A stretch of 64,000 nt of DNA from Candidatus Zhuqueibacterota bacterium. Its GTDB lineage: Bacteria; Zhuqueibacterota; Zhuqueibacteria; Residuimicrobiales; Krinioviventaceae. Below are positions 8,761-59,393 of this stretch, one piece after another. The notes beneath the pieces were generated by a model. That model worked only from the letters and a program-made list of their open reading frames with translations. It made no database searches and was not told where the DNA came from. Every line of letters starts with the position of its first letter. The stretch's first letter is position 1. The DNA is taken from NCBI GenBank assembly GCA_016934825.1, contig JAFGSB010000049.1:10045-74044 (forward strand), read 5' to 3'. The translations under genes were made by a program, and so were the position numbers.

Positions 8761-11700
8761 ATGCAGACCGAAACTCTGAAAAATGAAATTTTAACTCCTA
8801 TGGGATTACACGATCTTGCGGAAAATGATATCGATAATTTGTTATCCATTATTGTTAAAAAAACGGATAATAAGGAAACATATTTTTTCAAGGACCTCAC
8901 CTTTAACGAATATTCTCACTGTTTTGATCTGAATAAAAAATTTATTTATGAAATCAATAAATGGATCAACTTTATCATCAATCATGAAAAACTCAACATC
9001 AATGAACAGTATTATACCGTTGTTTTTGAAAAATATTTCAAAAATAAAAATTACTTTCCGCTTTCCAGAACATTACGGATGCTGCTTTTCCTGGAATCAA
9101 TTTTTATCAATAACTTTAACGATCCTGAAAACGCCACAACCATCGAAAATTTAAATAAAAACTTTAATATTAACTGGAATATTATTTTAACAGAAAAATC
9201 GGATTTGTTTGTTTATGGAAAAGAATTTTTAATTGATGATATTAATTTAATAAAACAAACCACTATCCCGGTAAATCATAATTTTCACATATCGCTGGCA
9301 TTGTTATTTATCATTGCGGTGTTCTATTCACAAACCGAAGCATACCGGACTGTATTTTGGGAAACATACAGCGCGGAACGTGGCAGAACGGAAATTCAAA
9401 AAAGATTTCAGTTCCTTGATTGTTTTACCATTGAGGGAACGGATCATACCGTATTGGATTTTATTATAGATTTAGTCACCATTATTATCCGGTATCAATC
9501 CGACCCGGGACAACTGGTACGGTTTTTCGGGGATTTTAAATACTATAAAAAAATCGCCTGGCTGACAAAGGAAAAATATAATAACGCCGTAATAAATGAA
9601 AAAATCCTGCATTCTATTTTTAATATTTTGGCTATCATAGAAGAAGCAAGGAATCATCAATTACCGGTAATGACCGACCATACAAAGAATCATATTCAAA
9701 CAGGCATCGATCTGGGCGAAGTTCTGAATAAAGGTGTTCACGAGCCCTTGGATTTGAACCAGCTGAAAAATATGCTGATTAACCTGTCTAAAAATAAAAA
9801 ATATTTACAGAATTATGAAAAAATAAAAAAGGATTATGAGCTACAAAGAGAGGGGTTCACATTTCGATGGTCTTTTGCACGGTCGATTATTAGAAAATTA
9901 CCGGTTGTCGAACCTGATTTTTACAGGTTTTTAAAGCTGACAGAAGAATATGTTATTCAAAATATCAGGGAAAATAACCCTGACAATATTGATATAAAAA
10001 ACCTGGAAAAATTGATCGCGCAATTTTCTTTTGGTCGTGATCAATCGCATAACCTGAAAAAATTAATTTTCAACAATATTAAAAAAATAATGAGCCATAT
10101 CGACGAAACGGATTCGCAACATCATTTTGCTGATGAATTTGAAAAAGCGTTTTATTATCATATTTTAACCATCCCGGATCCTTTTGAGCAGAATAATAAA
10201 GAATATGTCATAAAAATCAAGCTCAAAGACTATATTGCCGCCCCCCATCTCATTTTTGATGAGGAAACCGCAAACAGTTTCAACCGACAATGTGACAGTG
10301 ACTCCTGTGTGCCGAAAGTCCTTGAAGAACAAAAAGATGAGAATATTGATGTCTGTGAATTATTCAGATATTTGTATGTCCGGACAAAGGAAGAATTTGA
10401 TTTACAGGCGAAACGATTGAGTAATAATTACTGGATGTATTTTCCGGTGCCGCTTTTTAAAAGAATTTTGGAAGTTATTTACCGTTTGCAGCCGAATAAT
10501 TGTATCTCAATACCGATAAAAATTAAAAAAGGCGAAGACAATAATAATCAATTTCCAAAACAGACGGATGATGATAAAACAAAAACATTTTTAATTACAT
10601 TTCCCCGCGGCCTGCAAAAGGACAATGAAACGGATATCGAGATAATTAAATGTCTGGCGAATTACGTATGGTCAAATGTTCAAAATAAAGCCATGTCCGA
10701 AGGATTTAAATCAGCAGATATTATACTTGAAGAACTTGATAAACTCTCTGATACAAAAAATACCAAGCAGGACAAAAATTCAAATTGTATTGATAAAGAG
10801 TATTTAATAAGGGAAATTGAAGCGGCAAACAGATACAATTCTTACCACATATTGACGGAAAAGTATTTAACGGATTATAATAAAGAACGCGAAAATATTA
10901 AAACCATCTTTCAACCGGAAATACAATCCTTAAGACCCCTTTCGGTTACTAATCTTAAGAAATTATTAATAAAACAGTTAAATATATATTCCGGGAATAA
11001 AGATTCGGAAAATAAAAGTTTAATTTACATAGGAATTGATATTGGCGGTACATTTATCAAAGTTCAATTTTTTGAATTTATTAAAAACGCAAAAGAGTAC
11101 GAATTTAAAGAAATCGGAGATAAATTCAGGTTATTAACCAAACAAAAAAGAAACACACGGTCCGAACTGCCCGATAAAGAAATTTCTTCGCAGGATTTTG
11201 TTAAAAATATCATCCAAAGGATCAATTTACAAATCTTTTCGAATGATGAAATCAGAAAGAAACTGGAAAACAACAATATACATTCGATCGGCATAACGTG
11301 GCCGGGACCAGTCAGGGACAATAAAGTGTCCGGCACCAGTGGAATTTTGCAGCAGTTTTCTCCCCTCACCAGGGAAATCCCCAAAAATCAAATTGAGGAT
11401 ATCTGGAAATTAAATATTGTCGATACCTTTAAAAATGAATGGAAAGATAATTTCTGTTTAAATAAAGAAATATCACAAAAAGACATAACAGTTCCATTTG
11501 TAGCGCTGGTAAACGACGGCGACGCCGAAGGAATGGGGGCAATAGCATTTCCAATATTTGCAGATCCGAATTTTGATCTAGACGCGAATCCTGACCATGA
11601 AAAGGAAAATACTTTAATAGTTATTAAAATGGGTACCGGCACGGCGGGCGCGATTTTTAAAAATGAGAGTCTGGTTAAGAATCTGAACGAATGGGGAAAA

Positions 11701-12984
11701 ATTATTATTGATTTAGGAGCACATCCGGTATTTTGCGAATCTAAAAAAATTACTCCCTACCCTGTTGGTACCGCAAATCATTATTTATCCCAGAAAACAT
11801 TACCGCGGCTGGCAACGGAATTTAATGAAAATTTCAAACAAATTGAACAGTTGGATAGTCTTGAAATCGGGCTGATATTAAATGTCGGTAAAATTATAAA
11901 AAAGGAAATAAATAACAATACAAATAAAAGCCGGACATTGATCAGGTTAATCGAACAATGCGGCATACGGGAATATATTGTCAGCCAAAAATCTGAAATT
12001 TCCGAAAAAGTAAATGTTGAAGTATTACAGCGTATTTTGGATGAACATAAAGGCAGTCAGGACAAAAAAGGAGACCCTGAATTAGAAGAAATCTTACAAA
12101 AATATATGCACGCTTATCGCAGTTCCGCCATCGAAAAACTGATCGATGAAATATATATTTACGGAACGATACGATTATCAAAAATCCTGAGAAAGAACAA
12201 TGACATTAATAATGATCATATCAATCAATTTCTCTACAAAGTTCTGTTACTGGAAAAAAAATCCGTATCCATTAATAATAAAAATAATGAGATAAATCCG
12301 GATTTCATTTATTCGAAAGAATTTGTAATTGAATTATTGAAATACAAGCCGAAAATTAAAGAAGCTGAAATTACGGACAACTATAAATTGATTTCCGGTA
12401 AATTAAATGCAATCCATGATGAATGTAAAAAATACGCGGAGATAATGGGTATTTATGTCGGAGATTTTATTACCCTGTTATACGATCAGTATAATATGGA
12501 TCAACTCATATTATCCGGCGGCGTTTTATCCGACAAAACACGTGAAATTATTCTGTCAAATGCTCAAAAAAGACTTTGCCAGTACGGCATGAACCTTTTA
12601 ATCAAAGACGGCAGTGTAAACGAACAACAGGGAGAAATGAAATATAAAATAGAATTAAAACATAACGACATCAATAACGGACGGGATTTCGGATGTTATG
12701 GTTCCGCCATTTATGCCGCAAATGAAAGTGTTTATCAGGCACAGAAAGACGGGTTATTAGCTTTAAAATACAATTTAATGAAACTGGAAGCAAATGCAAC
12801 TATTGAAATAACGGAAGATGAGTTGAGTTTTATTTCCGAAAAAACAATGAATAATATAGTATTCAATAATACATTGTTAAACAGAAAAAACACTACCGAT
12901 TTTATTAAAAACATCGGCACCGACTTTAATATCATTCTGACAAAATCAGATAACGACAAAGAAATATTTATAAAATTAAGCTGA
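8761..12984 (+). CDS. Giant 1407-aa protein: uncharacterised N-terminal ~700 aa fused to a ROK/BadF/N-acetylglucosamine-kinase-like ASKHA (actin-fold) ATPase domain carrying large insertions
   Basis: ASKHA motifs in order: phosphate-1 'IYIGIDIGGTFIKV', 'LVNDGDAEGMGAIAF', 'IVIKMGTGTAGAIFKN', adenosine/phosphate-2 'LILSGGVLSD', and the terminal 'FGCYGSAIYAANE'. The N-terminal half matches nothing I recognise. Strongly Asn/Lys/Ile-rich, with much lower GC than neighbouring genes. Confidence 0.7.
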   Translation: MQTETLKNEILTPMGLHDLAENDIDNLLSIIVKKTDNKETYFFKDLTFNEYSHCFDLNKKFIYEINKWINFIINHEKLNINEQYYTVVFEKYFKNKNYFPLSRTLRMLLFLESIFINNFNDPENATTIENLNKNFNINWNIILTEKSDLFVYGKEFLIDDINLIKQTTIPVNHNFHISLALLFIIAVFYSQTEAYRTVFWETYSAERGRTEIQKRFQFLDCFTIEGTDHTVLDFIIDLVTIIIRYQSDPGQLVRFFGDFKYYKKIAWLTKEKYNNAVINEKILHSIFNILAIIEEARNHQLPVMTDHTKNHIQTGIDLGEVLNKGVHEPLDLNQLKNMLINLSKNKKYLQNYEKIKKDYELQREGFTFRWSFARSIIRKLPVVEPDFYRFLKLTEEYVIQNIRENNPDNIDIKNLEKLIAQFSFGRDQSHNLKKLIFNNIKKIMSHIDETDSQHHFADEFEKAFYYHILTIPDPFEQNNKEYVIKIKLKDYIAAPHLIFDEETANSFNRQCDSDSCVPKVLEEQKDENIDVCELFRYLYVRTKEEFDLQAKRLSNNYWMYFPVPLFKRILEVIYRLQPNNCISIPIKIKKGEDNNNQFPKQTDDDKTKTFLITFPRGLQKDNETDIEIIKCLANYVWSNVQNKAMSEGFKSADIILEELDKLSDTKNTKQDKNSNCIDKEYLIREIEAANRYNSYHILTEKYLTDYNKERENIKTIFQPEIQSLRPLSVTNLKKLLIKQLNIYSGNKDSENKSLIYIGIDIGGTFIKVQFFEFIKNAKEYEFKEIGDKFRLLTKQKRNTRSELPDKEISSQDFVKNIIQRINLQIFSNDEIRKKLENNNIHSIGITWPGPVRDNKVSGTSGILQQFSPLTREIPKNQIEDIWKLNIVDTFKNEWKDNFCLNKEISQKDITVPFVALVNDGDAEGMGAIAFPIFADPNFDLDANPDHEKENTLIVIKMGTGTAGAIFKNESLVKNLNEWGKIIIDLGAHPVFCESKKITPYPVGTANHYLSQKTLPRLATEFNENFKQIEQLDSLEIGLILNVGKIIKKEINNNTNKSRTLIRLIEQCGIREYIVSQKSEISEKVNVEVLQRILDEHKGSQDKKGDPELEEILQKYMHAYRSSAIEKLIDEIYIYGTIRLSKILRKNNDINNDHINQFLYKVLLLEKKSVSINNKNNEINPDFIYSKEFVIELLKYKPKIKEAEITDNYKLISGKLNAIHDECKKYAEIMGIYVGDFITLLYDQYNMDQLILSGGVLSDKTREIILSNAQKRLCQYGMNLLIKDGSVNEQQGEMKYKIELKHNDINNGRDFGCYGSAIYAANESVYQAQKDGLLALKYNLMKLEANATIEITEDELSFISEKTMNNIVFNNTLLNRKNTTDFIKNIGTDFNIILTKSDNDKEIFIKLS

Positions 12985-12997
12985 ACAGGAACTATTC

Positions 12998-14080
12998 ATG
13001 GAAATACAGATAAGTATTGAAAAAGAGAAAATAAACAGAACCGCGAAATTATTTATTCCGCGATCTGAATTAAGCCGCGTTTATTTGCATATCGCCTCCG
13101 CGGAGATTCTGAACCGAAGTAATTTTTATTTACGCCGCCATCGATACAAGGACGAAGCGTCAGGTCCCGACCCCAATAAACCGTGCCGGCTGAAAAACGA
13201 CAGTCAAAAAATACCTATTGCGCGGCATATTGAAATCATGCAGCAGCAGAATCTAATCCCACAGATATCTCCCGATAATACTGAGAATGGTGAAAATTTC
13301 CATTCCCTGCCGACCATGCTGGCAGTGCCGATTAGCGATCTGGTCGCGAACCTGATTCGACCCTCCTTTCACAAAGACGGTCTTGGTAATTTTAGAACAT
13401 TCTTTTTTAAGGATGAACCTGTATCCCAAAGAAGTTACTGGTGTATCTGTTACTTGAACAATAAACATGATAATAGCAAAAAACTGGAAATCCGCAAGCT
13501 CAACTTTGATGGCAAAAATGATACGGTTTCGGATTGTAACAATAAAACCGATTTGATCGAATCGGGCTTGGAATGGGCCGCGGGAATTGTACCGCTTGTG
13601 ATCGACAATAAACCGTTAAACGCTCACGAAATCGCGGTTCATGATTATGACCTCAGGCAGATCTTGGGACGGGATTCCACAGGGGACATTCAATATATTT
13701 ATGAGGGCTGGTATAACGAGTGGGAATCACGCATTCAAAAGGTGATTGCGGATTTTACAAAACAAAATAAATCTTTTGAAAGTTTTTATCACAGCATTTT
13801 ATGTTTGGATTCTGATAAAAATGTTTATATTTACCAGTTGGAAGGCGCTTTACCCGAACTTGCCCAAAAACTGGTACAGGAGGGTATACAATATGCCGGA
13901 TTACTGGACTCCGGCGGAAGCTGCGCGATCTACGATGCCTGGCTAAAATGTTACCTGAATCATGGGTGGTATTACCGGGAGCCCCGCGGCAGTATACTTT
14001 TATTTGAGCTTGATAATTCGGAAAGAATTCCCCTGAGCGATTTTTACAGAAATTTTCAGAAACAGGAGACAAACAAATAA
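12998..14080 (+). CDS. Hypothetical 360-aa protein, possibly phosphodiester-glycosidase-like (DUF2233/NAGPA family); start 13 nt after the giant ORF's stop
   Basis: 'AGLLDSGGSCAIY' resembles the 'LDGGGS' motif of phosphodiester glycosidases; otherwise no recognisable domain. AGGAA ribosome-binding site upstream. Confidence 0.55.
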   Translation: MEIQISIEKEKINRTAKLFIPRSELSRVYLHIASAEILNRSNFYLRRHRYKDEASGPDPNKPCRLKNDSQKIPIARHIEIMQQQNLIPQISPDNTENGENFHSLPTMLAVPISDLVANLIRPSFHKDGLGNFRTFFFKDEPVSQRSYWCICYLNNKHDNSKKLEIRKLNFDGKNDTVSDCNNKTDLIESGLEWAAGIVPLVIDNKPLNAHEIAVHDYDLRQILGRDSTGDIQYIYEGWYNEWESRIQKVIADFTKQNKSFESFYHSILCLDSDKNVYIYQLEGALPELAQKLVQEGIQYAGLLDSGGSCAIYDAWLKCYLNHGWYYREPRGSILLFELDNSERIPLSDFYRNFQKQETNK

Positions 14081-15451: not shown

Positions 15452-15910
15452 TTATTCACTTTCGCACTCTAACAAAAACATTTTCTCCAGCGCGGATGAA
15501 CCATAGTCCGAATTCATGTCATCCTGAGGCGGCGCAAATTCGAGTCCCGTCATTTTTTCAAGTGCGGTACCGGCCATAAAATTCTCGCCGCTTCCGCCGG
15601 TGATCGCGCTGTAACCCATTGGCAGCAATACATCGCCGGGCAAAACCGCATCGCCAGGAGTGGTATTGATTACTTTGGCCGCAACGCCGTTGCTGAGCGT
15701 CTTGATCAGTTCAATTCTGCCGATTCTCCGATAATCAAATCCCTCAAGTCGGTACACATTCAATTTATCGCCCTTGTCGCCAAGATTATTGACGGTATTG
15801 ATGAGTAAATACTGTTCTTTGACCTTCTCAACCGTGCCGATTTCCGGACTCGCCTGAATGATATTGGCCAGAAACATTATAGCCGAAAAAAGATAAACAA
15901 AAAACTTCAT
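15452..15910 (-). CDS. Small secreted hypothetical protein (start chosen at MKFFVYLFSAIMF with GAGGG ribosome-binding site; track ORF extends to 15949)
   Basis: Signal peptide and Gly-rich C-terminal half; lies immediately downstream of the beta-barrel protein gene on the same strand. Confidence 0.5.
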   Translation of the reverse strand: MKFFVYLFSAIMFLANIIQASPEIGTVEKVKEQYLLINTVNNLGDKGDKLNVYRLEGFDYRRIGRIELIKTLSNGVAAKVINTTPGDAVLPGDVLLPMGYSAITGGSGENFMAGTALEKMTGLEFAPPQDDMNSDYGSSALEKMFLLECESE

Positions 15911-15953
15911 TTTTCCCTCTGTAATTAAAAATTCCCATATACAATACAAAAAA

Positions 15954-17177
15954 TTAAAACCCGTAAATTAACGACACCTGTGTAAACAGGTTCGTTCCCG
16001 AATAATCCTTGCCGCTTAATATAAAAGGCCCGTTATGCAGAAAATTGGCGGCATTGTTGGTATCCAGCAAAGCGTCGATCTTTAAGCGGCCTAAACGAAA
16101 ATAAATACCCAGGTTGGCGCTGTACTGGTTGAAATATTCATCGTATTGATCGAGTGTTGTGTTATCAACTGGTGAATTTTGTGTCATCTTTTGTATGAGT
16201 TTGTACATCGACAGACGGAATCCCAGCCATTTTAGCAGATCCGCTTCCACGCCGATATTTACAAACGGCAGCGCGGAATAAGAATTTTCGGCCGCGACGG
16301 GCGCGGTTCCGGTTATCAGGCTTGTTTCGGTGGTGGATGATTGGCGCACCATTCCGGCGGCGCATGTTACCAGTACAAATTCACGCGGTATGATATTAAA
16401 TGCAACTCCGAGGTTCAGAATATTCTGTTTTTCCAGAAATGTGTGGATATTCTGTGTGATGAGTACCTGTTCCACTAAAAACTCGTATCCCGCCCCGTTA
16501 TAAGTATAATTAAAGAAAGGAACAAGAACAACCTTCTCGGACAGGGAACGCATATAACGCGCGGAAAAACTAATGGAGTGGTGACCATAAGGCTCACGCA
16601 CCTTGACCGTATCCCTGCTTCCAAGTTCATAACTGAATGAACGATTTGTATAAGAAATGGCTGCGTCGACCCGGCTGCTTTCATCGGGTTTGAAACTCGC
16701 TCCGCCTTCAATGGTTAGACTGCCGAGGCTTCCGCCCTGATCCTGTTTCGCGTCTTTGGGATTCGAATATTCCATCTTGTTATTATACCTGGCTAAATGC
16801 AGACCGACATCGAATTGTTGGGCGCGATAGCCGGCAAACAGATCAATCTGCTGATTAGCCATATTCATACCGGGTTCGGGATCAACATACTTTATGACGC
16901 GGTTCTGGTCGGAAAGATAAACACCGATGGTCGTATTCGGATTGATCGGTAAATTTATACCGCCCTCCGCAAGCGGATTACCGGTATATGATTCCAGAAA
17001 AATTTTATTATTATAATCAACAATCGTAGACGGATAGAGCCAGATATTATAACTGTCGATTAAATAAAAATTTGTTAGATAACCGAGGGATTGCAATCGT
17101 GTCCCACTCGCCCATGCGGGTGATATACTTGATAATAGTATAATCATAAACACGATTATTTTACTTAATTTTTTCAT
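15954..17177 (-). CDS. Outer-membrane beta-barrel protein (porin-like)
   Basis: Signal peptide MKKLSKIIVFMIILLSSISPAWA, alternating amphipathic beta-strand pattern, and a C-terminal '…LIYGF' with terminal Phe typical of outer-membrane proteins. Confidence 0.6.
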   Translation of the reverse strand: MKKLSKIIVFMIILLSSISPAWASGTRLQSLGYLTNFYLIDSYNIWLYPSTIVDYNNKIFLESYTGNPLAEGGINLPINPNTTIGVYLSDQNRVIKYVDPEPGMNMANQQIDLFAGYRAQQFDVGLHLARYNNKMEYSNPKDAKQDQGGSLGSLTIEGGASFKPDESSRVDAAISYTNRSFSYELGSRDTVKVREPYGHHSISFSARYMRSLSEKVVLVPFFNYTYNGAGYEFLVEQVLITQNIHTFLEKQNILNLGVAFNIIPREFVLVTCAAGMVRQSSTTETSLITGTAPVAAENSYSALPFVNIGVEADLLKWLGFRLSMYKLIQKMTQNSPVDNTTLDQYDEYFNQYSANLGIYFRLGRLKIDALLDTNNAANFLHNGPFILSGKDYSGTNLFTQVSLIYGF

Positions 17178-19182: not shown

Positions 19183-19295
19183 TACTATTTCTTTTATTCA
19201 AAATTCATTAAAAATTATTTGAAATATTACTTGACATTATCAAAAACAATAATATATTATAAACAAATGTGAATATAATATTTGGGGTGTGAAAA

Positions 19296-19350
19296 AAATA
19301 AAAAGGTATACAAGCAATCAACTTTTTGATTAATTGCATACCTTTTTTAT
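19296..19350 (+). terminator. Imperfect hairpin (AGGTATAC…GCATACCT) followed by TTTTTTAT, downstream of the ligase gene and upstream of the first REC-cNMP gene
   Basis: aaaaggtatacaagcaatcaactttttgattaattgcataccttttttat; a possible intrinsic terminator or leader/attenuator structure. Confidence 0.4.
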
Positions 19351-19454
19351 TAGATCACGAGTGTCATGGAAACAGGATCAATAATTAAATATTTGAGTAA
19401 TAAGTATAAATTTATTTAAAATAAATTTGATTTTTGTTAAAAGGGGATTTATAA

Positions 19455-20360
19455 ATGATTCTTGTTGTCGATGATGAACCGATTTACCAGAAACTGATTA
19501 AAAATTCGCTCAAGGGGACCGGTTGTGAGATTGACATTGCCGGTGACGGTTATATGGCTATGGAAAAAATTAAACAGAATAGATACCTGCTGGCGATTAT
19601 TGATCTTGTGCTGCCCGGTGCGATTAACGGAATGGATGTTATCAGAAAACTCAAAAAACAAAATCCGGAAACGCCAATTATCGTATGTTCAGGCTATGGG
19701 GGTAGTTCAATACAAACACGAATAGAAAAAGCCGGAGCCAATGCTTTTATTTTTAAACCATTCACTCCCGAACAGATGTTTGCCAAAGTTCATTCATTAT
19801 TAAGCGATACTATCGATTTTGAAAAACTCAAACAAGCGGTCGAAGAATCCCAAATTAATCCTGAAACGATTCCGGACATATTAGAAAATTTCCCGGATAA
19901 TAAAATAAATGAAATTTTAAATTTAGGTACAAGTTTTGAGCTGATTGCGCCGGACAAGCTGAGTGTAAATTTTACCGATTCGATAACAATTATCATGTCC
20001 GGTACGGTTGAGTGTCTTTATCAGGATAAGCCTATAGGAGAGTTACATGTACGAGAATCTATCGGTCATGAATCACTAATGAAAAATATTGAAAAAGATA
20101 AACAGATCGAATTGATAGCAAAATCTGACGTAAAATTACTTGTCATTCTCAAAGTGGAGTTCTTGAAATATTTTTGCACACAGACGAATGAATTATTATC
20201 CATTCTTGAAAAAAATATAAAAAAAACGCTGTCTAAAAATATTATCCTCATTTCCAAGATTCAAAGTCCTCCCCAAAAAATCAAACCGTCGGATTCAAGT
20301 AATATAAAAGACGATGATATTCAAGATAAGAATAAGAAAATAGATCTATTAAACATTTAA
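19455..20360 (+). CDS. Response-regulator receiver domain fused to a cyclic-nucleotide-binding-like (CAP effector) domain; no DNA-binding domain
   Basis: REC: 'VVDDEP', phospho-acceptor context 'LAIIDLVLPG', 'CSGYG', 'FIFKPF'. C-terminal '…TIIMSGTVECLYQDKPIGELHVRESIGHESLM…LLVILKVEFLKYF' follows the cNMP-binding beta-roll pattern. Confidence 0.75.
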   Translation: MILVVDDEPIYQKLIKNSLKGTGCEIDIAGDGYMAMEKIKQNRYLLAIIDLVLPGAINGMDVIRKLKKQNPETPIIVCSGYGGSSIQTRIEKAGANAFIFKPFTPEQMFAKVHSLLSDTIDFEKLKQAVEESQINPETIPDILENFPDNKINEILNLGTSFELIAPDKLSVNFTDSITIIMSGTVECLYQDKPIGELHVRESIGHESLMKNIEKDKQIELIAKSDVKLLVILKVEFLKYFCTQTNELLSILEKNIKKTLSKNIILISKIQSPPQKIKPSDSSNIKDDDIQDKNKKIDLLNI

Positions 20361-20504
20361 GAAATTATAGTTCTTGCTTTACAAATCAAAATTATTAAAT
20401 TTAACTTTTAAGAAAATGATCCGATAAAAATTAAAGGAGAATAATATCTCTCATAAATTATTATGTCTTTACGAATTATATTTTGAAGTTTATAGGTTAA
20501 TATA

Positions 20505-21425
20505 ATGATTCTGATAGTGGAAGATGAATCTATTTATCGAAGAGCAATAACGGAAATACTGGAGGTATCCGGTTTACAGGGGGAAGTTGCCACAGACGGT
20601 TATCAGGCTATGCAAAATCTGGAAAAAAAACATTACTCTCTTGCTATCGTGGACCTTGTCCTGCCCGGTCCCGTGAATGGATTTGACGTTATAAAAAAAA
20701 TTAAGACAACTTCTCCGGGGACACATATCATTGCGATGTCGGGTTACGGAAATCAATCGCTGGTGCAAAAAACATATAAAGCCGGCGCAGACCTTTTTAT
20801 TCCGAAACCGTTCAAACCGGAAAAACTGGCAATGGAAGTGGAAAAGTTGTTACAAATTAAAAAAACAGAGGTTGAACCGACGCCAAAAACCGAATCGTCC
20901 ACGATTGACATCAGAACGATACCGGAAATATTTAACGGCTTTTCAAGAGATACGCTCATCGAAATCATTAAACTTGGTAAAGTATTTAATTTGTTACCGA
21001 CAGAAAAATATCAAATAAATTATACTGAATCCATAGCACTAATTATATCGGGAAGCGCGGAATGCTGGCTGGGCAATACCAATATTGGCGTTTTACAAAA
21101 CAAGGAATCTTTGGGCCAGGAATCACTGCTCAAAAAAGCGGATCCGAATGCAATTCTGACTTTTGAAGCACAAGCCCCTTTAAAACTGTTTATCGTTCCC
21201 CGGATCAGGTTAATAAAATATCTTCACGCAAATAACCAAATACCGACATTTGAAAAAAATATTAAAATCTCATTACATAAAAACCTTATCCTCAAGGCAA
21301 AACAAAAAACTAATTCAAATATATCAAATCCGGTCCAATCCCCTCCCGTTTCTCAACAAAACAAATCCCCGCAAATTAAAAATGATAATCTGGATTTTGA
21401 TTCTATTGAAAAGTTAGATTTTTAA
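20505..21425 (+). CDS. Second REC plus cNMP-binding-like protein, tandem paralogue of 19455..20360
   Basis: Same architecture and collinear motifs: 'IVEDES', 'LAIVDLVLPG', 'MSGYG', 'FIPKPF', '…LIISGSAECWLGNTNIGVLQNKESLGQESLL…'. Confidence 0.75.
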   Translation: MILIVEDESIYRRAITEILEVSGLQGEVATDGYQAMQNLEKKHYSLAIVDLVLPGPVNGFDVIKKIKTTSPGTHIIAMSGYGNQSLVQKTYKAGADLFIPKPFKPEKLAMEVEKLLQIKKTEVEPTPKTESSTIDIRTIPEIFNGFSRDTLIEIIKLGKVFNLLPTEKYQINYTESIALIISGSAECWLGNTNIGVLQNKESLGQESLLKKADPNAILTFEAQAPLKLFIVPRIRLIKYLHANNQIPTFEKNIKISLHKNLILKAKQKTNSNISNPVQSPPVSQQNKSPQIKNDNLDFDSIEKLDF

Positions 21426-21609
21426 CGGCGGAAAAAACATCCCTTACCTCTGATTAATTTCGTAACAAGCCTGATCCAGACTGGTTTTTTCTGACCGGGT
21501 TCCCGGATTGTATCGTTCACATTATTCTCCCGATTCAAAAAATTGCTTGATAATCCCATTTAAAATATTAAGTTAGTTGAAAATAACTCAATATCAAGGG
21601 AACAATACA

Positions 21610-22485
21610 ATGAATTATTCCAAATATTTCAAGTGCATATTTATCTTTTTTTTAGCCGTCCTTATTTACACCTGTCCGCTTTTTCCTTCCGATCCGTTAA
21701 TGCGTGTCATGACGTTCAACGTTCGTGTAAACGTGGCAAGCGACAGTTCCAACGCCTGGCCAAACCGCAAGGATATCGCGGCAAGTATGATCCGGTTTCA
21801 CAATGCGGATATTATCGGATTGCAGGAAGCATTAAAAGAACAGGTCGATGATCTGGCAATCCGTCTTCCTGAATATAAATGGTTTGGAATCGGGCGGGAT
21901 GACGGAAAGGATGCCGGGGAATTTATGGCGATTTTTTACCGCAGCGAACGTTTTGATGTGCTGACGGATTCAACATTCTGGTTATCGGAAACTCCCGGAA
22001 AACCGGGACTGGGCTGGGATGCCGCCTGTAATCGTGTGGTTACTTTTGGTAAATTTAAGGATAAAAAAACCGATAAGGTATTCTTTTTATTCAACACCCA
22101 CTTTGATCATATGGGTCAGGTCGCACGCCGTGAAAGCGCAAAATTTCTATTACAAAGCGTCGCCGAAATCGGTTCCGGACTTCCTGTGATTGTTACGGGG
22201 GATTTTAACAGTACACCGGACTCTGAACCATATAAAATATTAACCCAGGGTGTTAATGGAATCAAACTGATTGACTCAAAAAGTATGTCCCAATATCCCC
22301 ACCACGGACCGACAGGAACCTGGACCGGATTTAAGACCGCTTATTTTCCCGACAGACAGCCCATTGACTATATTTTTATTCGAAATAATGTTAAAGTGCT
22401 ATTGCACGGCACGCTGTCCGATAGTTTTGACGGACGTTTCCCAACCGACCATATGCCCGTACTGGCGGAGGTGATCATCGAATAG
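21610..22485 (+). CDS. Secreted endonuclease/exonuclease/phosphatase (EEP) family protein (ATG at 21610 preferred over the track's TTG at 21577)
   Basis: Signal peptide, then 'MRVMTFNVRVN', 'GLQEAL', 'NTHFDH' and a C-terminal 'DHMPV' matching EEP catalytic blocks. Confidence 0.7.
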   Translation: MNYSKYFKCIFIFFLAVLIYTCPLFPSDPLMRVMTFNVRVNVASDSSNAWPNRKDIAASMIRFHNADIIGLQEALKEQVDDLAIRLPEYKWFGIGRDDGKDAGEFMAIFYRSERFDVLTDSTFWLSETPGKPGLGWDAACNRVVTFGKFKDKKTDKVFFLFNTHFDHMGQVARRESAKFLLQSVAEIGSGLPVIVTGDFNSTPDSEPYKILTQGVNGIKLIDSKSMSQYPHHGPTGTWTGFKTAYFPDRQPIDYIFIRNNVKVLLHGTLSDSFDGRFPTDHMPVLAEVIIE

Positions 22486-23809: not shown

Positions 23810-24640
23810 ATGAATCCAGTAGTAAAAATTGCTAAACATCTCGACCGCAAAGAATACTTTAGTTTTCGTCTGTGGGAATTTTGCCTGCGAAACACTGTGC
23901 GGCTGTTCCCCTGGTACTTTTTATTTGCCGTTCTGATACGGCATCCGCTGACGGCCTTACACGGTTTTTGGTATTACCGTAATCTGGTGCGAAATTCTCC
24001 CAGGCAGGCTTTGCACGGAACTATAAATCTATCCTCGTTGATCCGTACCCTGCGCCAAAATAAAAAAAACGGGCGTCTGATTTTAGCACCGGGTTTCTGC
24101 ATGAAACCGTTTGATGCGGTGAAACGCGAGTCGATTTGTCCCGCCGGATTTTTTAACCATCGTTGCGCTATACTGGATCAACCGGAGCTATTACGCCAGG
24201 AACAGGAAACCTGGGCAGAACCATGCGACCGGTGCAACATCGGCAGACTGGCGCGGCTGAGTGCGCAGATTCATGCGGATTTTTATATTATGACATCCGC
24301 TTTGGATATTGCCCATGACCTGTTTTTACCATCACTGCAGGGAACCGGAGCCAATATGGGTATATTTCTTTTGTGCCCTTATTCCGCCGAAGCGTTTACA
24401 TTCGGGCTTACTGTGACCGGTATGAAAGGCGCTCTGATAACTTTTTGTAAGGGCGATTGTCAGAATTACGAAGAATTTACCAGGGCGGATATTGGTATTA
24501 AAAAAAAGCAAACCTTTATTGAGGAAAGTGATTTTGAATATCTGCAAAATGAATTGGCGGCAGATACTGGACCCGCCATGTCCCCGTCACACAGGATTCC
24601 CAGTTATTCCCGCAAAAATAATGTTTACCGCGCGGAGTAA
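23810..24640 (+). CDS. Cys-rich hypothetical protein (possible metal- or Fe-S-binding, DUF116-like?)
   Basis: Conserved-looking cysteines 'FCMKPFDAVKRESICPAGFFNHRCAILD…CDRCNIGRL'. Sits directly downstream of the radical SAM gene. Confidence 0.45.
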   Translation: MNPVVKIAKHLDRKEYFSFRLWEFCLRNTVRLFPWYFLFAVLIRHPLTALHGFWYYRNLVRNSPRQALHGTINLSSLIRTLRQNKKNGRLILAPGFCMKPFDAVKRESICPAGFFNHRCAILDQPELLRQEQETWAEPCDRCNIGRLARLSAQIHADFYIMTSALDIAHDLFLPSLQGTGANMGIFLLCPYSAEAFTFGLTVTGMKGALITFCKGDCQNYEEFTRADIGIKKKQTFIEESDFEYLQNELAADTGPAMSPSHRIPSYSRKNNVYRAE

Positions 24641-31033: not shown

Positions 31034-34000
31034 TTATTTGATTAACATCATCTTTTTAACAACAACCTCGTTATCGGTCTGCAGTCTGTAGAAGTAAAGA
31101 CCGCTTGAAAGGTTGCCGGCATTAAAGTTAACAGAATGCTCACCAGCCTGAACCCGGCCGTTAATCAACCTGGCCACTTCCCTGCCAAGAACGTCATAAA
31201 CGATAAGTTCGACGTTGGAATCCTTTGGCAGTGAAAAATCAATATGTGTGCTCGGGTTGAACGGGTTTGGATAATTCTGGAATAAATTAAACGAGCTGAC
31301 CAGTTTATCCTGCTTTTTAATATCGGATGCAACCGGGGAACCCCACAACCGCGCGACACCCATTAAATCGGGATACTGCCAGTCATTATCGGTGGCATCA
31401 TAGGTTTTGAGTTTGGTGTCTTTTACGCCGCCGTCATCGTCATCATTCCAATCCAGATCAATCCCGATCAATGAACCGTAACCGGGATCAATTCCAAGTA
31501 ATTCCATCGGAATGGCCGTCTCAAGGATTAATCCGTCAGCCGTTAACTTTTGCGCCTGTTTAATTTTGGCAAACAGGGCAGAGTCTTTATTTGCGACTTT
31601 ACCTTCGCTTACCGGTAAAAGCAGGGCATCCGGATCATACCTGTAGGCAAAACCCCAGTCGTTCACACCGTCATATGAATGTTTGGCGCTATGATCGGCG
31701 TCAATCCATAATTCCACGCCGTCGTCATTCCAGGATTGATCAACGTCAAAATCCCTGTGTAAAGTATCATCCACAACATTGATCCAGAAATACAGGTATT
31801 CCGTATTCCATACAGTTTTAAAGTTGACTTCGGCATCCTTGTAATCATACAATTTGCTGAATTCAGAAAAGCGTTGATTGACAAAAATATCCGGTACATT
31901 TTCCCACGCGTAATCCATCTCGGCGTCAACTTCAATCGGATAGGCGGTATAATGAATATCCAGGAAATCCGAAGTTTCGCGGCCGGTGAATTTTACCGTA
32001 CCGAATTGACTCGGGTCCAGCCAGGAATTTCCATTATCGGACCACCATCTCCACTGAGTGTTGCGGCCACCGGTATCGTTATCATTGATCTGGACCTCAA
32101 AACCGATTTCCAGGCCTTCCGCCGCTTTAAAGGTCAAACCCCTGCTGAACGGCATTTGTATTTCAACGTTGTATCCGAAATCCGTTCTAGCATAGGCATA
32201 GACAAAATTATCAAGCTGAATATTACCCAATAATGCAGTCGGTTCCTTTCCATATTCAAAACGCAACTGATCATCATTATCATCATAGGCGCTCACACCA
32301 GCTTGAACCATGACATTTTTACTGTTGTCTCCATCAAAATACAGCTCAACGCCGTCATTTGCCCAGGCATCGGCGCTTGAGTTATCAATGGAATCATCCT
32401 GAACTTCAACAAAAACATACAGGTTTCTGGAGTCATACATCATTCTGAAACGGCCGAACATATCAAACCAGTTATCCGGTTCTGTGTCCATGCCGATCAA
32501 CATATTTACGTTGCTGACATTAAACCAGGTGGAATCCAGAACACCGTCAATGGGTGGAGGTGTGGTTGTTCTATCAACCAGCAATGGTTTTGCTTTTTCC
32601 GGAACTTCACCGCCGGGAGCGCCGACGAATTTCCCGGAGCCAAAAACGCTCGGTTTCTGCCAGGAATCGTCTGCCGCTGAAAATGTTTTACATTTTGTAT
32701 CGCGCTGTTTGCCGGCGCCGGTATCGTCATCGTTATAGTCAATCTCATGCCCGACCATCCAGCCGTTAGTGGGCTGCATATGTAAAGAATCAAGCGGCAG
32801 GGCAAATTCGAGATAGATCCCTTTATCCGTTTCGGTAGCGGCCCATGGCACAGAATTAATATCAAATGCAGCATCCCCGCCAAAACCCATCGATACGGAA
32901 TCCAATGGTGAGCCGGGAACATACGACCATTTAATACCAATATCATCGTAACCGTCGTATGCTGGTTTTTTACTGTTGTTGCCGTCAAACCAGAACTCGA
33001 TACCGTCATCCGACCAGTCATAAACACCGTCCGTGATAAGGACATCATCCATTACATCGATACCATAATAAATATAATTGCTATCGAATACGACATTGAA
33101 TGTTAATGAAAGATCATCGAAAAAACTATTCAAGCTGTCCGCGGTATTCATATACTGGTTGAGAACATAAGTCGGGAAATTGTCCCAGGCTTCTTCTCTT
33201 ACACCGTCAATAACAGGAGCGGTATCCGTATACCAGATTTCGGTATAATCATTTTGGATATTATCAACTATCTCGACTGTGCCCAGAACACTCGGATTCT
33301 GCCAGGATTCATCGATCATGGAAAAATACTTGACTTTGGTATCCACATCGCCGCCGTCATCATCGTCATTCCAGTCAACTTCGAAACCGAATCGATAACC
33401 CGGGGTTGGGGTAATTCCAAGTAAATCAAGCGGGAACGCGACTTCAAGGGAAACCATGCCGAGAACGCCATCGCCGGTATAGGCTGCGGCCTGCATGACA
33501 CCGGAATAATCACCGCCGGCGCCTGAATGTGTAAAAGGATTAAAGATCAGAGGATTATCCGGATCACCCGAATACAGGAATTGAAAACCCCTGTCATCCA
33601 CACCGTCATAAGTTGTACCTTTACTGTTATTACCGTCAAACCAGACTTCCACACCATCATCTTTCCACGTTTCGGTTCCGCTGTCTCGCATTAATGTATC
33701 ATCATTGACCAGAACAAACAAATAAAAATACTTGTCGTCATACAAACCGCGCCAGCTTATCGCGGCATCCTGAAAACTATAGACTTTTGCAGGTCCGTTT
33801 GGGAAATGAAAATCCCGGTTCCAGGGACCTGTTTTCCAGATATCATCCAGCACACCATCGATAGCCGGCGGGTGGGCCGCTCTGGCGATCGGGGGGATAC
33901 TATCAGCGTCTGTAACAGCATAATGCGGAACATCATTTAGAGCAAAAGCCTGGGTTCCGGTGAATAGGCCAAGCCCTAATGTGCCTACTAACATATAAAA

Positions 34001-57848: not shown

Positions 57849-59393
57849 ATGATATCGGAAAAAAGCTTGCTTCTATTATATCAAAACGCTGTGCAAGGAA
57901 TTTATCAAACTACTCGTGAAGGGCGTTTTTTAACAGTTAATCCCACAATTGCTGTAATGCTGGGGTATGATTCAACAACAGACCTGATCCAATCCATAAC
58001 CGATATAGGTTCGCAGTTGTATGTTGAACCGGACCGCCGACAGCAATTTATCGATGAAATCGAAAAAAGATATATTGTAAATAATTTTATCTCACAAATA
58101 AATAAAAAAGATAAGACTAAAATCTGGATTTCTGAAAACGCACGAATCGTATGTGATGAAACGGGAAATGTTCTTTATTATGAAGGTTTTATATCGGATA
58201 TAACAGCGCTTAAACAAGTGGAAGAACAAATTAATTCTCAGTTAAAAAGACAATTTATAAATGAAAAAATGGAATCCATCGAATTAATGGCCAGGGGATT
58301 TGGTCATGATTTGAATAACATGCTGAGCCCGATTTTGGGATATGCGGAATTACTATTGGAATTTTTCCCTAATGAAGAAAAAATGGAGAGATACCTGCAG
58401 AATATAATACGATCCACTAAAAAAGCCCGCGATTTGATCGGGCAGATACATTCGATCGGAAAACCTGAAAAAAGAAAAAGTAAACCGCTGCACATCTCAA
58501 GTCTTATTAACGAGATTATAAATCAGCAAAGAACCAAACACTCACCGAATATTCACATAACACAAAAAATTGAAAACGATATCCCCTACATTCTGGGGAA
58601 TCCGTCACAAATTCATCAGATATTGAATAACATGATCGAAAACGCTATTCAAACAATGGAAAACATCGGGGGTGAATTAACTGTTACTTTAAGGGAAAGA
58701 AATTTAACGGCAAACGATATTCATATCAATTCCCTCTATCTTGATCCAGGCTCCTATCTTGAAATTATTTTAAGTGACACTGGTGACGGCATACAGGCGA
58801 AAAATATACATTGTATTTTTGATCCCTATTTCATTACCAGAAATGACAAAATCGGACATGGATTTGGCTTAGCCACAGTTTATAGTCTTGTTAGAATGTA
58901 TAACGGCGATATTAAAGTAAAAAGTAATCCGGGGAACGGTACAACCTTTAATATTTATCTGCCTGCTTACAAAACAGATGTGACAACAAATTATTTACCT
59001 GCCGACAAAAATCCTTCGCGAACCCAAAAACATATAATGCTCATCGATGATGATGATGATATTCTCAAAATACAAAAGCAACTTGTTGAATATCTTGGAT
59101 ACAAGGTTACGGCATTTAATGAAAGTCAACTGGCGCTTGAAGCATTTAGTAATAATCCCCAACTTTACGATCTTATTTTGACGGATATGAATATGCCTGA
59201 ATTGACCGGGCTGGCGCTCTCAAAATTAATGCTGCAAATCAATTCCGATATACCGATAATATTATGCACAGGTTATGCCGAAAGCATCAATGAAGCGACC
59301 ATTAAATCGGTCGGCATTAAAAAGTTTATCCTCAAACCCTTAACCGCTCAAAAACTTTCCAATGATTTGAAAACTGTTTTAAAAGAATCATAA
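57849..59393 (+). CDS. Hybrid sensor histidine kinase (PAS – HisKA – HATPase_c – REC)
   Basis: H-box 'GFGHDLNNMLSPILGYAELL'; G-boxes 'LSDTGDGI' and 'GHGFGLATV'; C-terminal receiver 'IMLIDDDDD…LILTDMNMP…KPL'. Confidence 0.85.
   Translation: MISEKSLLLLYQNAVQGIYQTTREGRFLTVNPTIAVMLGYDSTTDLIQSITDIGSQLYVEPDRRQQFIDEIEKRYIVNNFISQINKKDKTKIWISENARIVCDETGNVLYYEGFISDITALKQVEEQINSQLKRQFINEKMESIELMARGFGHDLNNMLSPILGYAELLLEFFPNEEKMERYLQNIIRSTKKARDLIGQIHSIGKPEKRKSKPLHISSLINEIINQQRTKHSPNIHITQKIENDIPYILGNPSQIHQILNNMIENAIQTMENIGGELTVTLRERNLTANDIHINSLYLDPGSYLEIILSDTGDGIQAKNIHCIFDPYFITRNDKIGHGFGLATVYSLVRMYNGDIKVKSNPGNGTTFNIYLPAYKTDVTTNYLPADKNPSRTQKHIMLIDDDDDILKIQKQLVEYLGYKVTAFNESQLALEAFSNNPQLYDLILTDMNMPELTGLALSKLMLQINSDIPIILCTGYAESINEATIKSVGIKKFILKPLTAQKLSNDLKTVLKES

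What the first reader, a model, noticed from the sequence alone, without database searches (positions are those of the whole stretch)
19455..21425. Tandem paralogues with a rare architecture: receiver domain plus cNMP-binding-like domain without any DNA-binding output
Both proteins have intact phospho-acceptor receiver domains, followed by a CAP-effector-like beta-roll. They lack the HTH that follows this domain in CRP/FNR regulators. Two diverged copies sit head-to-tail, separated by 144 bp. That hints at a duplicated signalling node integrating phosphorylation with a small-molecule ligand (cAMP, cGMP or c-di-NMP). The partner kinase is not adjacent; the only histidine kinase in the window (57849..59393) is a hybrid with its own receiver domain.
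Basis: partly seen in the sequence, partly recalled or inferred. Interest (0 to 1): 0.5.

Follow-up and report, generated by a model that had tools for sequence, protein, structure and literature searches.

The report
Tandem receiver–CNB-like response regulators
Two neighbouring signalling genes each join a phosphorylation switch to a CRP-type "cyclic-nucleotide" domain that has lost its nucleotide-contact residues and has no DNA-binding part; they belong to a tiny family that elsewhere mostly sits among type IV pilus motor genes, so they probably act by binding proteins rather than by sensing cAMP or cGMP.

Summary

In both copies the phosphate-binding-cassette Glu and Arg are replaced, and no Arg occurs there in 39 relatives. 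Canonical cAMP/cGMP binding is therefore unlikely.

New points:
- A disordered tail ends in a conserved acidic-hydrophobic C-terminal motif.
- The family is tiny (40 cluster representatives among 1.84 billion proteins).
- Six of seven examined relatives outside the window's clade lie in type IV pilus-like clusters next to the PilB-like ATPase gene.
- The window's clade has left that context and instead forms a conserved RR–RR–secreted EEP phosphatase trio.

REC–CAP_ED regulators are already catalogued, so I rate this a new variant of a known kind. The most likely mechanism is a protein-interaction output.

The parts
19231..19260 (+). Promoter-like site (TTGACA-16/18-TATATT/TATTAT, 11 of 12) upstream of RR1, inside a 21-nt block identical in the closest relative L002
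19300..19353 (+). Stable hairpin followed by a T-run, between the promoter-like site and the RR1 start. It is either the terminator of the upstream AMP-binding gene or a leader/attenuator. The stem is conserved in L002 only
   Evidence: -20.6 kcal/mol, z -3.8; no Rfam match
19455..20360 (+). RR1 gene (301 aa): REC - linker - CNB-like domain - disordered tail with C-terminal motif
   Evidence: (100% identical to an NCBI 'response regulator [candidate division KSB1 bacterium]')
19458..19790 (+). RR1 receiver domain (aa 2-112); phospho-acceptor D50 at 19602..19604
   Evidence: 89.3 bits; CheY alignment; fold hits to receiver domains
19857..20252 (+). RR1 CNB-fold domain (aa 135-266): helix A, eight-stranded beta-roll, short helix between beta6 and beta7, helices B and C
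   Evidence: (pLDDT 95.2)
20064..20120 (+). RR1 degenerate phosphate-binding cassette (G204-H205-E206 ... K214/K216 ... A222): the Gly is kept, the canonical Glu is His, the canonical Arg is Lys
20334..20357 (+). RR1 extreme C-terminal motif KKIDLLNI, after a low-complexity disordered spacer
20361..20504 (+). RR1-RR2 spacer (144 bp), 84% identical to L002, which looks high given that the flanking proteins are only 66% and 75% identical (no nucleotide comparison of the coding regions was run)
   Evidence: protein identities
20505..21425 (+). RR2 gene (306 aa), same architecture as RR1
20508..20837 (+). RR2 receiver domain (aa 2-111); phospho-acceptor D50 at 20652..20654
   Evidence: (89.8 bits)
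20907..21302 (+). RR2 CNB-fold domain (aa 135-266); PBC G204-Q205-E206 ... P/A in the Arg column (21114..21170)
21393..21422 (+). RR2 extreme C-terminal motif DFDSIEKLDF
21610..22485 (+). Conserved third gene of the trio: a signal-peptide-bearing endonuclease/exonuclease/phosphatase-family protein, closest to Bacteroides proteins that include a mannosyl-6-phosphatase. It has its own conserved upstream block. ATG 21610 is the more likely start than TTG 21577
   Evidence: (3g6s 1.4e-59; 4c1r 3.9e-52)

Best explanation
RR1 and RR2 are two phosphorylation-competent response regulators with no DNA-binding or enzymatic output. Each consists of a receiver domain, a flexible linker, a CRP-type beta-roll (CNB homology) domain that has lost the canonical cyclic-nucleotide contacts, and a disordered tail ending in a short conserved acidic-hydrophobic motif.

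They are a derived, relocated and re-duplicated branch of a very small family. Most other members of that family are encoded between the PilB-like and PilT-like ATPase genes of type IV pilus-like clusters.

I infer that phosphorylation of D50 changes how the CNB-like domain and the tethered C-terminal motif engage a protein partner. The CNB-like domain probably dimerises through its long C-helix, possibly as an RR1/RR2 heterodimer. The ancestral partner is most plausibly a pilus or secretion ATPase. On this view the pair does not integrate cAMP or cGMP.

Shown: the domain architecture, the intact phospho-acceptor site, the degenerate PBC, the tail motif and the genomic associations. Inferred: dimerisation, docking by the tail, the identity of the target, and loss of nucleotide binding.

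For: Degenerate PBC: Glu to His/Gln and Arg to Lys/Pro/Ala in the two copies; no Arg in 39 members; only two Gly are invariant family-wide.

Tail motif: [DN]xDx[IT][DE][LI]Lx[LIF]-COOH in 16 of 22 members of the tail-bearing lineage. In the four heterologous pairs checked (L001, L003, L007, L009), at least one partner keeps it.

Pilus link: P0072, P0074, P0077, P0088 and P0083 lie immediately after the 594-595-aa T2SSE ATPase gene in pilin-PilC-PilB-RR-(PilS-like)-PilT-...-secretin clusters. P0084 is followed by a PilS-like membrane protein. That is six of seven examined.

Tandem REC-CNB pairs recur in L007 and L009. The tree places the window's clade as sister to the tail-bearing pilus copy.
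Against: No pilus or secretion-ATPase gene lies in the 64-kb window or next to any member of the window's own clade. What is conserved there is a secreted EEP phosphatase, which cannot be a direct cytoplasmic target.

The full-length AF2 model does not dock the tail on anything (pLDDT < 50).

Loss of nucleotide binding is inferred from sequence only. An invariant Glu sits one residue after the canonical position, RR1 has Lys near the Arg position, and other ligands or binding modes are not excluded.

The tree is a crude NJ tree. One distant member (P0087) is not pilus-linked.
Confidence: 0.5

Rival explanations
1. One reading: the CNB-like domains still bind a cyclic (di)nucleotide, so each protein integrates a phosphorylation input with a second-messenger input, and the duplication gives two differently tuned nodes.
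For: The fold is a genuine CNB fold, and the top structural neighbours include ligand-bound CAP, PKG, HCN and the cyclic-pyrimidine sensor PycTIR. The PBC Gly and a neighbouring Glu are invariant in the clade, and RR1 has Lys at or near the Arg position. The solo third paralogue in three related genomes sits next to an MBL-fold phosphodiesterase-like gene with a faint Apyc1 resemblance.
Against: The canonical Glu and Arg are both replaced in both copies, and the Arg column is K/N/M/P/S/A/C across orthologues, so it is not conserved even as a basic residue. Pfam cNMP_binding is below threshold or absent. No cyclase lies nearby in the window. The MBL gene is closest to RNase Z/ELAC, and Apyc1 scores only E 0.003.
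Confidence: 0.2
2. The beta-roll senses a different small ligand or cofactor, as in non-cNMP members of the CRP/FNR family (from general knowledge: CooA with haem, NtcA with 2-oxoglutarate, PrfA with glutathione, CprK with chlorophenols). Phosphorylation and that ligand would jointly set the output.
For: Clade-specific invariant residues cluster in the roll (N172, T174, I177, G183, C187, G204, E206) and in helix C (N254). Cys187 is retained in most of the wider family. Structural neighbours include DNR, HcpR and CooA sensor domains.
Against: Across the whole family only two Gly are invariant and one Asn nearly so, which argues against a shared ligand pocket. No biosynthetic or transport gene for a candidate ligand is linked. 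Nothing here identifies a ligand.
Confidence: 0.15
3. The pair is dedicated to the neighbouring gene. RR1/RR2 control production or export of the secreted EEP (mannosyl-6-phosphatase-like) enzyme as part of glycan foraging, acting through a partner transcription factor or the secretion machinery.
For: RR1-type, RR2-type and EEP genes form a trio in six genomes: the window, L002, L012, L013, L014 and L018+L015. Other flanking genes differ except in L002, which also shares the AMP-binding and radical-SAM genes. The RR2-to-EEP gaps are only 34-48 bp in L001 and L003. The window is rich in glycoside hydrolases and T9SS-sorted proteins.
Against: The regulators have no DNA-binding domain. The EEP gene has its own conserved promoter-like block and a gap of 184-294 bp in the window and L002. 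The wider family's conserved context is pilus genes, not EEP. The six genomes may be too closely related for synteny alone to prove a functional link.
Confidence: 0.1

Closest known systems
Response regulators with a CAP_ED (cNMP-binding) output domain, a class in Galperin's 2006 classification
   Same: Same two-domain architecture: an N-terminal receiver and a C-terminal CAP effector-type beta-roll, with no DNA-binding domain. [quoted passage not shown]
   Different: No member of the class was found to be functionally characterised in the searchable literature. This subfamily falls below Pfam's cNMP_binding threshold, lacks the PBC Glu/Arg, carries a C-terminal docking-type motif and is linked to pilus clusters.
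CRP/FNR-family transcription factors (CAP, Vfr, GlxR, Clr)
   Same: The sensor domain has the same fold and topology, including the long C-helix that mediates dimerisation in CRP.
   Different: No C-terminal winged-HTH, a receiver domain in front, 10-18% identity, and the cAMP contacts E72/R82/S83 not conserved.
Cyclic-nucleotide-binding homology domains (CNBHD) of KCNH/EAG/hERG and plant SKOR/AKT channels
   Different: Eukaryotic channel context. Their pocket is filled by an 'intrinsic ligand' strand after helix C. Whether the conserved N-hydrophobic segment after helix C here (KNIIL / KNLIL) does the same was not tested.
CheY-like regulators of type IV pilus motors and polarity (PilG/PilH; Myxococcus FrzS and RomR)
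   Same: Receiver-domain proteins without DNA-binding output that act on pilus ATPases or polarity factors. RomR likewise has a receiver, a low-complexity linker and a short conserved C-terminal region (general knowledge). The wider family here is encoded next to the PilB-like ATPase gene, in five loci between the PilB- and PilT-like genes.
   Different: No sequence relationship beyond the receiver domain. None of those proteins has a CNB-like domain. A pilus role for the window's own pair is an extrapolation.
Pycsar effector PycTIR N-terminal CNB domain
   Same: Best Foldseek match of the C-terminal domain (8jsk, E 1.7e-7, TMq 0.68).
   Different: No effector (TIR or TM) domain, no adjacent cyclase, and no PADLOC match beyond receiver-domain noise. 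This is not a defence system.

Membership tests
Response regulator receiver domain (PF00072) | Profile score above the Pfam gathering threshold | tested here: met
   89.3 and 89.8 bits against 30.2
Response regulator receiver domain (PF00072) | Acid pocket, phospho-acceptor Asp, Ser/Thr, aromatic switch residue, Lys (CheY D12/D13, D57, T87, Y106, K109) | tested here: met
   D6/D7 (E6/D7 in RR2), D50, S79, F98, K101 in both copies. D7, D50 and K101 are invariant in 15 relatives
Response regulator receiver domain (PF00072) | Phosphotransfer from a cognate histidine kinase | not testable with these tools
   No adjacent kinase. The only one in the window is the hybrid at 57849..59393
cNMP_binding / CAP_ED (PF00027) | Profile score above the Pfam gathering threshold (27.5 bits) | tested here: not met
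   Full-length proteins: no hit at E <= 10. Isolated domains: RR1 14.8 bits (E 0.028), RR2 no hit
cNMP_binding / CAP_ED (PF00027) | Homology detectable at profile level | tested here: met
   The family profile hits only CNB proteins among the listed PDB matches (PKG 2.6e-30 ... CAP 2e-3). hhalign to CRP gives probability 84%. 23 of 33 wider-family members hit PF00027 at E <= 0.01
cNMP_binding / CAP_ED (PF00027) | Eight-stranded beta-roll with a PBC helix, flanked by helices A and B/C | tested here: met
cNMP_binding / CAP_ED (PF00027) | Phosphate-binding cassette G-E-x-A ... R-[ST]-A that contacts ribose and phosphate | tested here: not met
   Gly is kept. Glu is replaced by His/Gln, with an invariant Glu shifted by +1. 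Arg is replaced by Lys (RR1) or Pro/Ala (RR2). No Arg in 39 members
cNMP_binding / CAP_ED (PF00027) | Actual binding of cAMP or cGMP | not testable with these tools
   Needs biochemistry
CRP/FNR transcription factors | C-terminal winged helix-turn-helix DNA-binding domain | tested here: not met
   Only 35-40 disordered residues follow helix C, and there is no HTH family hit
CNB homology domain (KCNH type, nucleotide-independent) | CNB fold lacking the nucleotide-contact residues | tested here: met
CNB homology domain (KCNH type, nucleotide-independent) | Intrinsic ligand segment after helix C occupying the pocket | not tested
Pycsar / CBASS-type defence effector with a CNB sensor | CNB sensor fused to a killing domain and encoded next to a cyclase | tested here: not met
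   No PADLOC family beyond weak receiver-domain noise. Neighbours are AMP-binding, EEP and radical-SAM genes
Pilus-cluster REC-CNB regulators (the family defined here) | Gene located next to the PilB-like T2SSE ATPase gene of a pilin-PilC-PilB-...-PilT-...-secretin cluster | tested here: not met
   Met for P0072, P0074, P0077, P0088 and P0083. Not met for the window's pair or its clade
Pilus-cluster REC-CNB regulators (the family defined here) | Sequence membership: REC plus this CNB-like subfamily | tested here: met
   Profile search: 40 representatives, window clade at 1e-34 to 1e-54 and pilus-linked members at 1e-8 to 1e-25. The A5 HMM scores 121-154 bits on the locus-encoded copies

The most novel reading that the evidence does not exclude
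The window's pair belongs to an undescribed class of pilus-motor regulators. The class combines a receiver domain, a nucleotide-blind CNB homology domain and a tethered C-terminal docking peptide. It is ancestrally encoded between the extension (PilB-like) and retraction (PilT-like) ATPase genes, often beside an ATPase-less PilS-like 6TM-DHp protein, and would switch the motors in response to phosphorylation. In the KSB1-type lineage this module was detached from the pilus cluster, duplicated again, and fixed next to a secreted glycan phosphatase. It would act as an RR1/RR2 heterodimer on the same or a new target.
Probability: 0.3. Interest if true: 0.6.

Novelty: new variant of a known kind. 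Interest (0 to 1): 0.4.

Why it matters
Response regulators that act through something other than DNA binding or catalysis are the least understood part of two-component signalling. The REC–CAP_ED class has been listed in censuses for about twenty years without a characterised member.

This analysis shows that at least one REC–CAP_ED lineage is probably not a cyclic-nucleotide sensor. It gives that lineage a concrete, testable context: type IV pilus-like motor ATPases, an ATPase-less PilS-like partner, and a C-terminal docking motif.

It also warns against annotating "cNMP-binding" function from fold alone. For the window itself it defines a conserved three-gene unit (RR–RR–secreted EEP phosphatase) in an uncultured KSB1-type lineage.

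Tried and rejected
- **Plain Pfam and NCBIfam scans of the full proteins.** Only the receiver domain is seen. NCBIfam hits are receiver-only fragments of OmpR, NtrX, RssB and similar models, far below their cut-offs, so no equivalog applies.
- **Fold search with the full-length model.** It was swamped by receiver domains. I solved this by modelling the C-terminal domain alone.
- **Defence-system reading, prompted by the PycTIR top hit.** Rejected: no PADLOC match, no cyclase and no effector domain.
- **Riboswitch or known RNA in the leader and spacers.** No Rfam match. The hairpin upstream of RR1 is shared only with L002.
- **MBL gene beside the solo paralogue as a cyclic-nucleotide phosphodiesterase.** It is conserved in three genomes, but its best matches are RNase Z/ELAC, and Apyc1 scores only E 0.003. 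I kept it as a weak lead only.
- **EEP protein as a direct target.** Rejected as a cytoplasmic partner because it carries a signal peptide and resembles periplasmic or secreted Bacteroides phosphatases.
- **Survey of REC+CNB proteins in AFDB50.** The library was not available.
- **Galperin's 2006 and 2010 papers.** They could not be opened, so the class is cited through PMC2222644.
- **Genome scan with the wide alignment A3.** It failed for lack of conserved stretches. A1 worked but reaches only the window's clade.
Full report

Yes. The ORF list gives 19455..20360 (+, 301 aa) and 20505..21425 (+, 306 aa), separated by 144 bp. I call them RR1 and RR2. They are 39% identical over their whole length (BLASTP E 3e-69), so they are true diverged paralogues.

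RR1 is 100% identical to an NCBI protein named 'response regulator [candidate division KSB1 bacterium]' on an 83-kb contig. The genes are real: full-length orthologues at 35-84% identity exist in several metagenome-assembled genomes.

**2. The receiver domains**

Both proteins score about 89 bits on Pfam Response_reg, against a cut-off of 30.2. Their structural neighbours are activated receiver domains.

- CheY D12/D13 corresponds to D6/D7 (E6/D7 in RR2).
- D57 corresponds to D50.
- T87 corresponds to S79.
- Y106 corresponds to F98.
- K109 corresponds to K101.

D7, D50 and K101 are invariant in 15 relatives. Phosphorylation competence is therefore well supported by sequence.

**3. The C-terminal domain**

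A plain Pfam scan does not report cNMP_binding on either full protein, even at E <= 10. On the excised domains, RR1 reaches only 14.8 bits (E 0.028, cut-off 27.5) and RR2 gives nothing. More sensitive tests all point the other way:

- A profile of 15 orthologous C-terminal domains hits only CNB-fold proteins in the PDB sequence set.
- A 39-40-sequence profile gives PKG 2.6e-30, PKA-R 6.5e-9, KCNH CNBHD about 2e-6, Epac about 2e-5 and CAP about 2e-3, and every listed hit is a CNB protein.
- hhalign to E. coli CRP gives 84% probability, E 7e-6.
- 11 of 15 close members and 23 of 33 wider members touch PF00027.
- An AlphaFold2 model of the domain alone is very confident (mean pLDDT 95.2, pTM 0.88). 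It shows helix A, an eight-stranded roll with a short helix between strands 6 and 7, and helices B and C.

The fold claim is therefore correct. Nothing follows the domain except 35-40 residues modelled as disorder, and no HTH family is hit. 'No DNA-binding output' is also correct.

**4. Ligand-contact residues**

Two independent registers agree that the signature contacts are gone: HMMER against PKG and hhalign against CRP.

- The PBC glycine is invariant (G204).
- CRP E72 aligns with His205 in RR1 and Gln205 in RR2. An invariant Glu206 sits one residue later.
- CRP R82 aligns with Lys (K214 or K216) in RR1 and with Pro or Ala in RR2.
- Among orthologues that column is K, N, M, P, S, A or C. 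No Arg occurs in this loop in any of the 39 family sequences.
- Across the wider family only two glycines are invariant and one Asn in helix C is nearly so. This is not what a conserved ligand pocket looks like.
- Within the window's clade a set of polar residues is invariant (N172, T174, C187, E206, N254). A clade-specific ligand cannot be excluded.

My reading is that canonical cAMP/cGMP binding is unlikely (about 75-80%). This is an inference from sequence, not a measurement.

**5.

*(a) A conserved C-terminal motif.* After a variable, low-complexity, disordered spacer, both proteins end in a short acidic-hydrophobic motif: KKIDLLNI in RR1 and DFDSIEKLDF in RR2.
- The same motif ends many relatives: DFDATDLLGL, DIDIIELLQL, DLDLIEILHL, GADIIDLLSL, FDFTTSDLLGI.
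- It is present in 16 of 22 members of one lineage.
- That is the signature of a tethered docking peptide.
- In the four heterologous pairs I could check (L001, L003, L007, L009), at least one partner keeps it.
- From memory, it resembles the CheY-binding peptides of FliM and CheZ. That is only a lead.

*(b) The family is very small.* An exhaustive HMM search of 1.84 billion cluster representatives with the C-terminal profile finds 40 proteins at E <= 1e-3, nearly all about 280-400 aa. Of the 33 that I aligned and scanned, 29 carry a receiver domain in front.

*(c) Restricted distribution.* Among 185,579 species-representative genomes, matches covering both domains occur in only four MAGs. The patterns used reach only the window's clade.

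**6. Genomic context**

*The window's clade.* RR1-type, RR2-type and an endonuclease/exonuclease/phosphatase (EEP) gene form a trio in six genomes: the window, L002, L012, L013, L014, and L018+L015 split at contig ends. Other flanking genes differ, except in L002, which also shares the AMP-binding and radical-SAM neighbours.
- The EEP protein has a signal peptide. It is closest to Bacteroides proteins that include a mannosyl-6-phosphatase (3g6s 1.4e-59, 4c1r 3.9e-52).
- Three of these genomes also carry a solo third paralogue next to an MBL-fold hydrolase. That hydrolase is RNase Z/ELAC-like, with only a faint Apyc1 resemblance.

*Outside this clade.* Six of seven members I looked up lie in a type IV pilus-like cluster. 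The order is pilin-like gene, T2SSF, a 594-595-aa T2SSE ATPase, the REC-CNB gene (two in tandem in L007 and L009), a 6TM-PilS+HisKA protein without an ATPase domain in three loci (H-box HE[LM]NNP), a roughly 400-420-aa T2SSE ATPase, two unknown genes, then a secretin.
- L011 is a short contig showing an RR followed by a PilS-like membrane protein.
- In L092 and L093 the RR gene overlaps the next ATPase gene by 17 and 4 nt.
- P0087 is the exception.

*The window itself* contains no pilus gene. Its only histidine kinase is the PAS-HisKA-HATPase-REC hybrid at 57849..59393.

**7. Evolution of the pair**

A crude NJ tree groups RR1-type, RR2-type and solo-type proteins together. This group is sister to the tail-bearing pilus-cluster copy (L007_RR, L009_RR, P0073, P0075). 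The second pilus-cluster copy (L007_318, L009_RR2, P0076, P0078) branches elsewhere.

The window's tandem pair is therefore a later duplication within the tail-bearing lineage. It is not the same duplication as the pilus-cluster pairs. Tandem REC-CNB pairs have arisen and been kept at least twice, which suggests that two copies work together.

**8. Non-coding DNA**

- *Upstream of RR1.* A 21-nt block containing TTGACA is identical in L002, and it overlaps a promoter-like site scoring 11 of 12 (19231..19260). It is followed by a conserved stable hairpin with a T-run (19300..19353; -20.6 kcal/mol, z -3.8) about 100 nt before the start codon. This could be the upstream gene's terminator or a leader element. 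There is no Rfam match.
- *RR1-RR2 spacer.* It is 84% identical to L002. That looks high given that the flanking proteins are only 66% and 75% identical, but I did not compare the coding DNA directly.
- *EEP gene.* It has its own conserved upstream block, so the three genes may be separately promoted.

**9. Most likely mechanism**

*Shown:*
- Two phosphorylatable receiver domains.
- A CNB-fold domain with a degenerate cassette.
- A disordered tail with a conserved terminal motif.
- No DNA-binding or catalytic domain.
- Membership of a family that is otherwise embedded next to pilus motor ATPase genes.

*Inferred:*
- Phosphorylation at D50 alters the association of the CNB-like domains, whose long C-helix is the dimerisation element in CRP.
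- It also alters the availability of the C-terminal docking motif, and so controls binding to a protein partner.
- By ancestry the most plausible partner class is a PilB/PilT-type ATPase or an associated pilus component.
- In this lineage the module has moved away from that cluster, and its present target is unknown.

I put about 0.5 on this overall picture. I put about 0.95 on the architecture and about 0.75 on loss of canonical nucleotide binding.

*Rivals:* a still-functional (possibly non-canonical) nucleotide sensor (0.2); a sensor of another ligand, as in CooA, NtcA or PrfA-type relatives (0.15); and a dedicated role with the neighbouring EEP gene (0.1). The last is not mutually exclusive with the others.

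**10. Comparison with what is known, and novelty**

REC-CAP_ED is a listed class of response regulator (PMC2222644 citing Galperin 2006), so the architecture itself is not new.

I found no paper in the searchable library that characterises such a protein or links one to pilus clusters. The library is incomplete and the primary classification papers could not be opened.

Functionally the domain looks more like the nucleotide-independent CNB homology domains of KCNH/SKOR channels than like CAP. It is not a CRP/FNR transcription factor (no HTH) and not a Pycsar-type effector.

I rate it a new variant of a known kind, of moderate interest (0.4). The window's pair itself remains of unknown target. 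The family-level pattern (pilus-cluster position, ATPase-less PilS-like neighbour, docking tail, nucleotide-blind roll) is a concrete and testable lead.

Noticed in passing
window 20334-20357 and 21393-21422; also the C-termini of P0014, P0015, P0068, P0072, P0074, P0075 and L003 9132-10094: Conserved extreme C-terminal motif ([DN]xDx[IT][DE][LI]Lx[LIF]-COOH) after a variable disordered spacer, in 16 of 22 members of one lineage. It is a candidate docking peptide. From memory it resembles the FliM-N and CheZ-C CheY-binding peptides.
   Followed up: partly
L007 3016-14927; L009 3181-15059; L010 740-11861; L092 3263-13489; L093 3212-13480: Conserved type IV pilus-like cluster in uncultured bacteria: pilin-like gene, T2SSF, 594-aa T2SSE, REC-CNB (one or two copies), then a PilS-like protein in three loci, a roughly 400-420-aa T2SSE, two unknown genes and a secretin. 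In three loci a giant Big_1/invasin-repeat protein follows.
   Followed up: partly
L007 9063-10019; L009 9305-10288; L010 5499-6470: PilS-like membrane proteins with a 6TM_PilS domain and a HisKA/DHp H-box (HE[LM]NNP, which is the phosphatase-motif form) but no HATPase_c domain (318-327 aa in total). They are candidate phosphatase-only or scaffold partners of the REC-CNB proteins.
   Followed up: partly
L005/L016 7058-8945; L017 4371-7894; L019 7133-8861: A solo third REC-CNB paralogue sits near an MBL-fold hydrolase gene in three genomes (directly adjacent in L016 and L019, about 1.8 kb away in L017), although the surrounding gene order is rearranged in L019. The MBL protein is RNase Z/ELAC/YhfI-like, and Apyc1 scores only E 0.003.
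   Followed up: partly
window 19222-19353: A 21-nt block with TTGACA (a promoter-like site scoring 11 of 12) is followed by a stable hairpin and T-run. Both are conserved in L002, and they lie about 100 nt upstream of the RR1 start. Possible readings are a leader or attenuator, a short RNA, or the upstream gene's terminator. No Rfam family matches.
   Followed up: partly
window 20361-20504: The RR1-RR2 intergenic spacer is 84% identical to L002, which looks higher than expected from the flanking proteins (66% and 75% identity; coding DNA not compared). Conserved blocks include TTCTTGC and AAAATGATCCGATAA.
   Followed up: no
window 21577-22485: The EEP gene more likely starts at ATG 21610 (MNYSKYF..., matching L002) than at TTG 21577. 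The protein is closest to Bacteroides EEP proteins, including a mannosyl-6-phosphatase. It fits the window's many glycan-degrading genes (GH2, GH30, GH31/melibiase-like, heparinase-like, CBM9, glucuronyl esterase) and T9SS-sorted genes (Por_Secre_tail at 31034-34066 and 34959-38840).
   Followed up: partly
P0070 (1966 aa) and P0071 (2712 aa): Two giant proteins each give 17 repeated partial matches to positions 4-47 of the C-terminal domain profile (helix A plus the first strands). These may be repeat proteins or a compositional artefact.
   Followed up: no
window 8761-12984, 12998-14080, 15452-15949, 15954-17177, 23810-24640: Several ORFs, one of them 1407 aa, have no Pfam match at E <= 1e-3 or 1e-4. 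By eye, 15954-17177 looks like an outer-membrane beta-barrel with a signal peptide.
   Followed up: no
window 1248-3146: A PAS-PAS-SpoIIE (PP2C-type phosphatase) signalling protein. With the hybrid kinase at 57849-59393, it is the only other obvious signalling gene in the window.
   Followed up: no
L020 4102-5621; L021 8001-9209: Three receiver-domain matches in a row, about 100-140 residues each, lie within 1.2-1.5 kb in two unrelated MAGs. They are either triple-REC proteins or tandem single-domain regulators.
   Followed up: no
L001 12031-16539 compared with window 41663-44117 and 55797-57372: The distant relative L001 carries AP_endonuc_2, glucuronyl esterase, DAGK_cat and HAD genes within 7 kb of its RR-RR-EEP trio. 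Genes with the same Pfam families are spread over 20-35 kb downstream in the window, which suggests large-scale gene-order relatedness (no sequence comparison was run).
   Followed up: no
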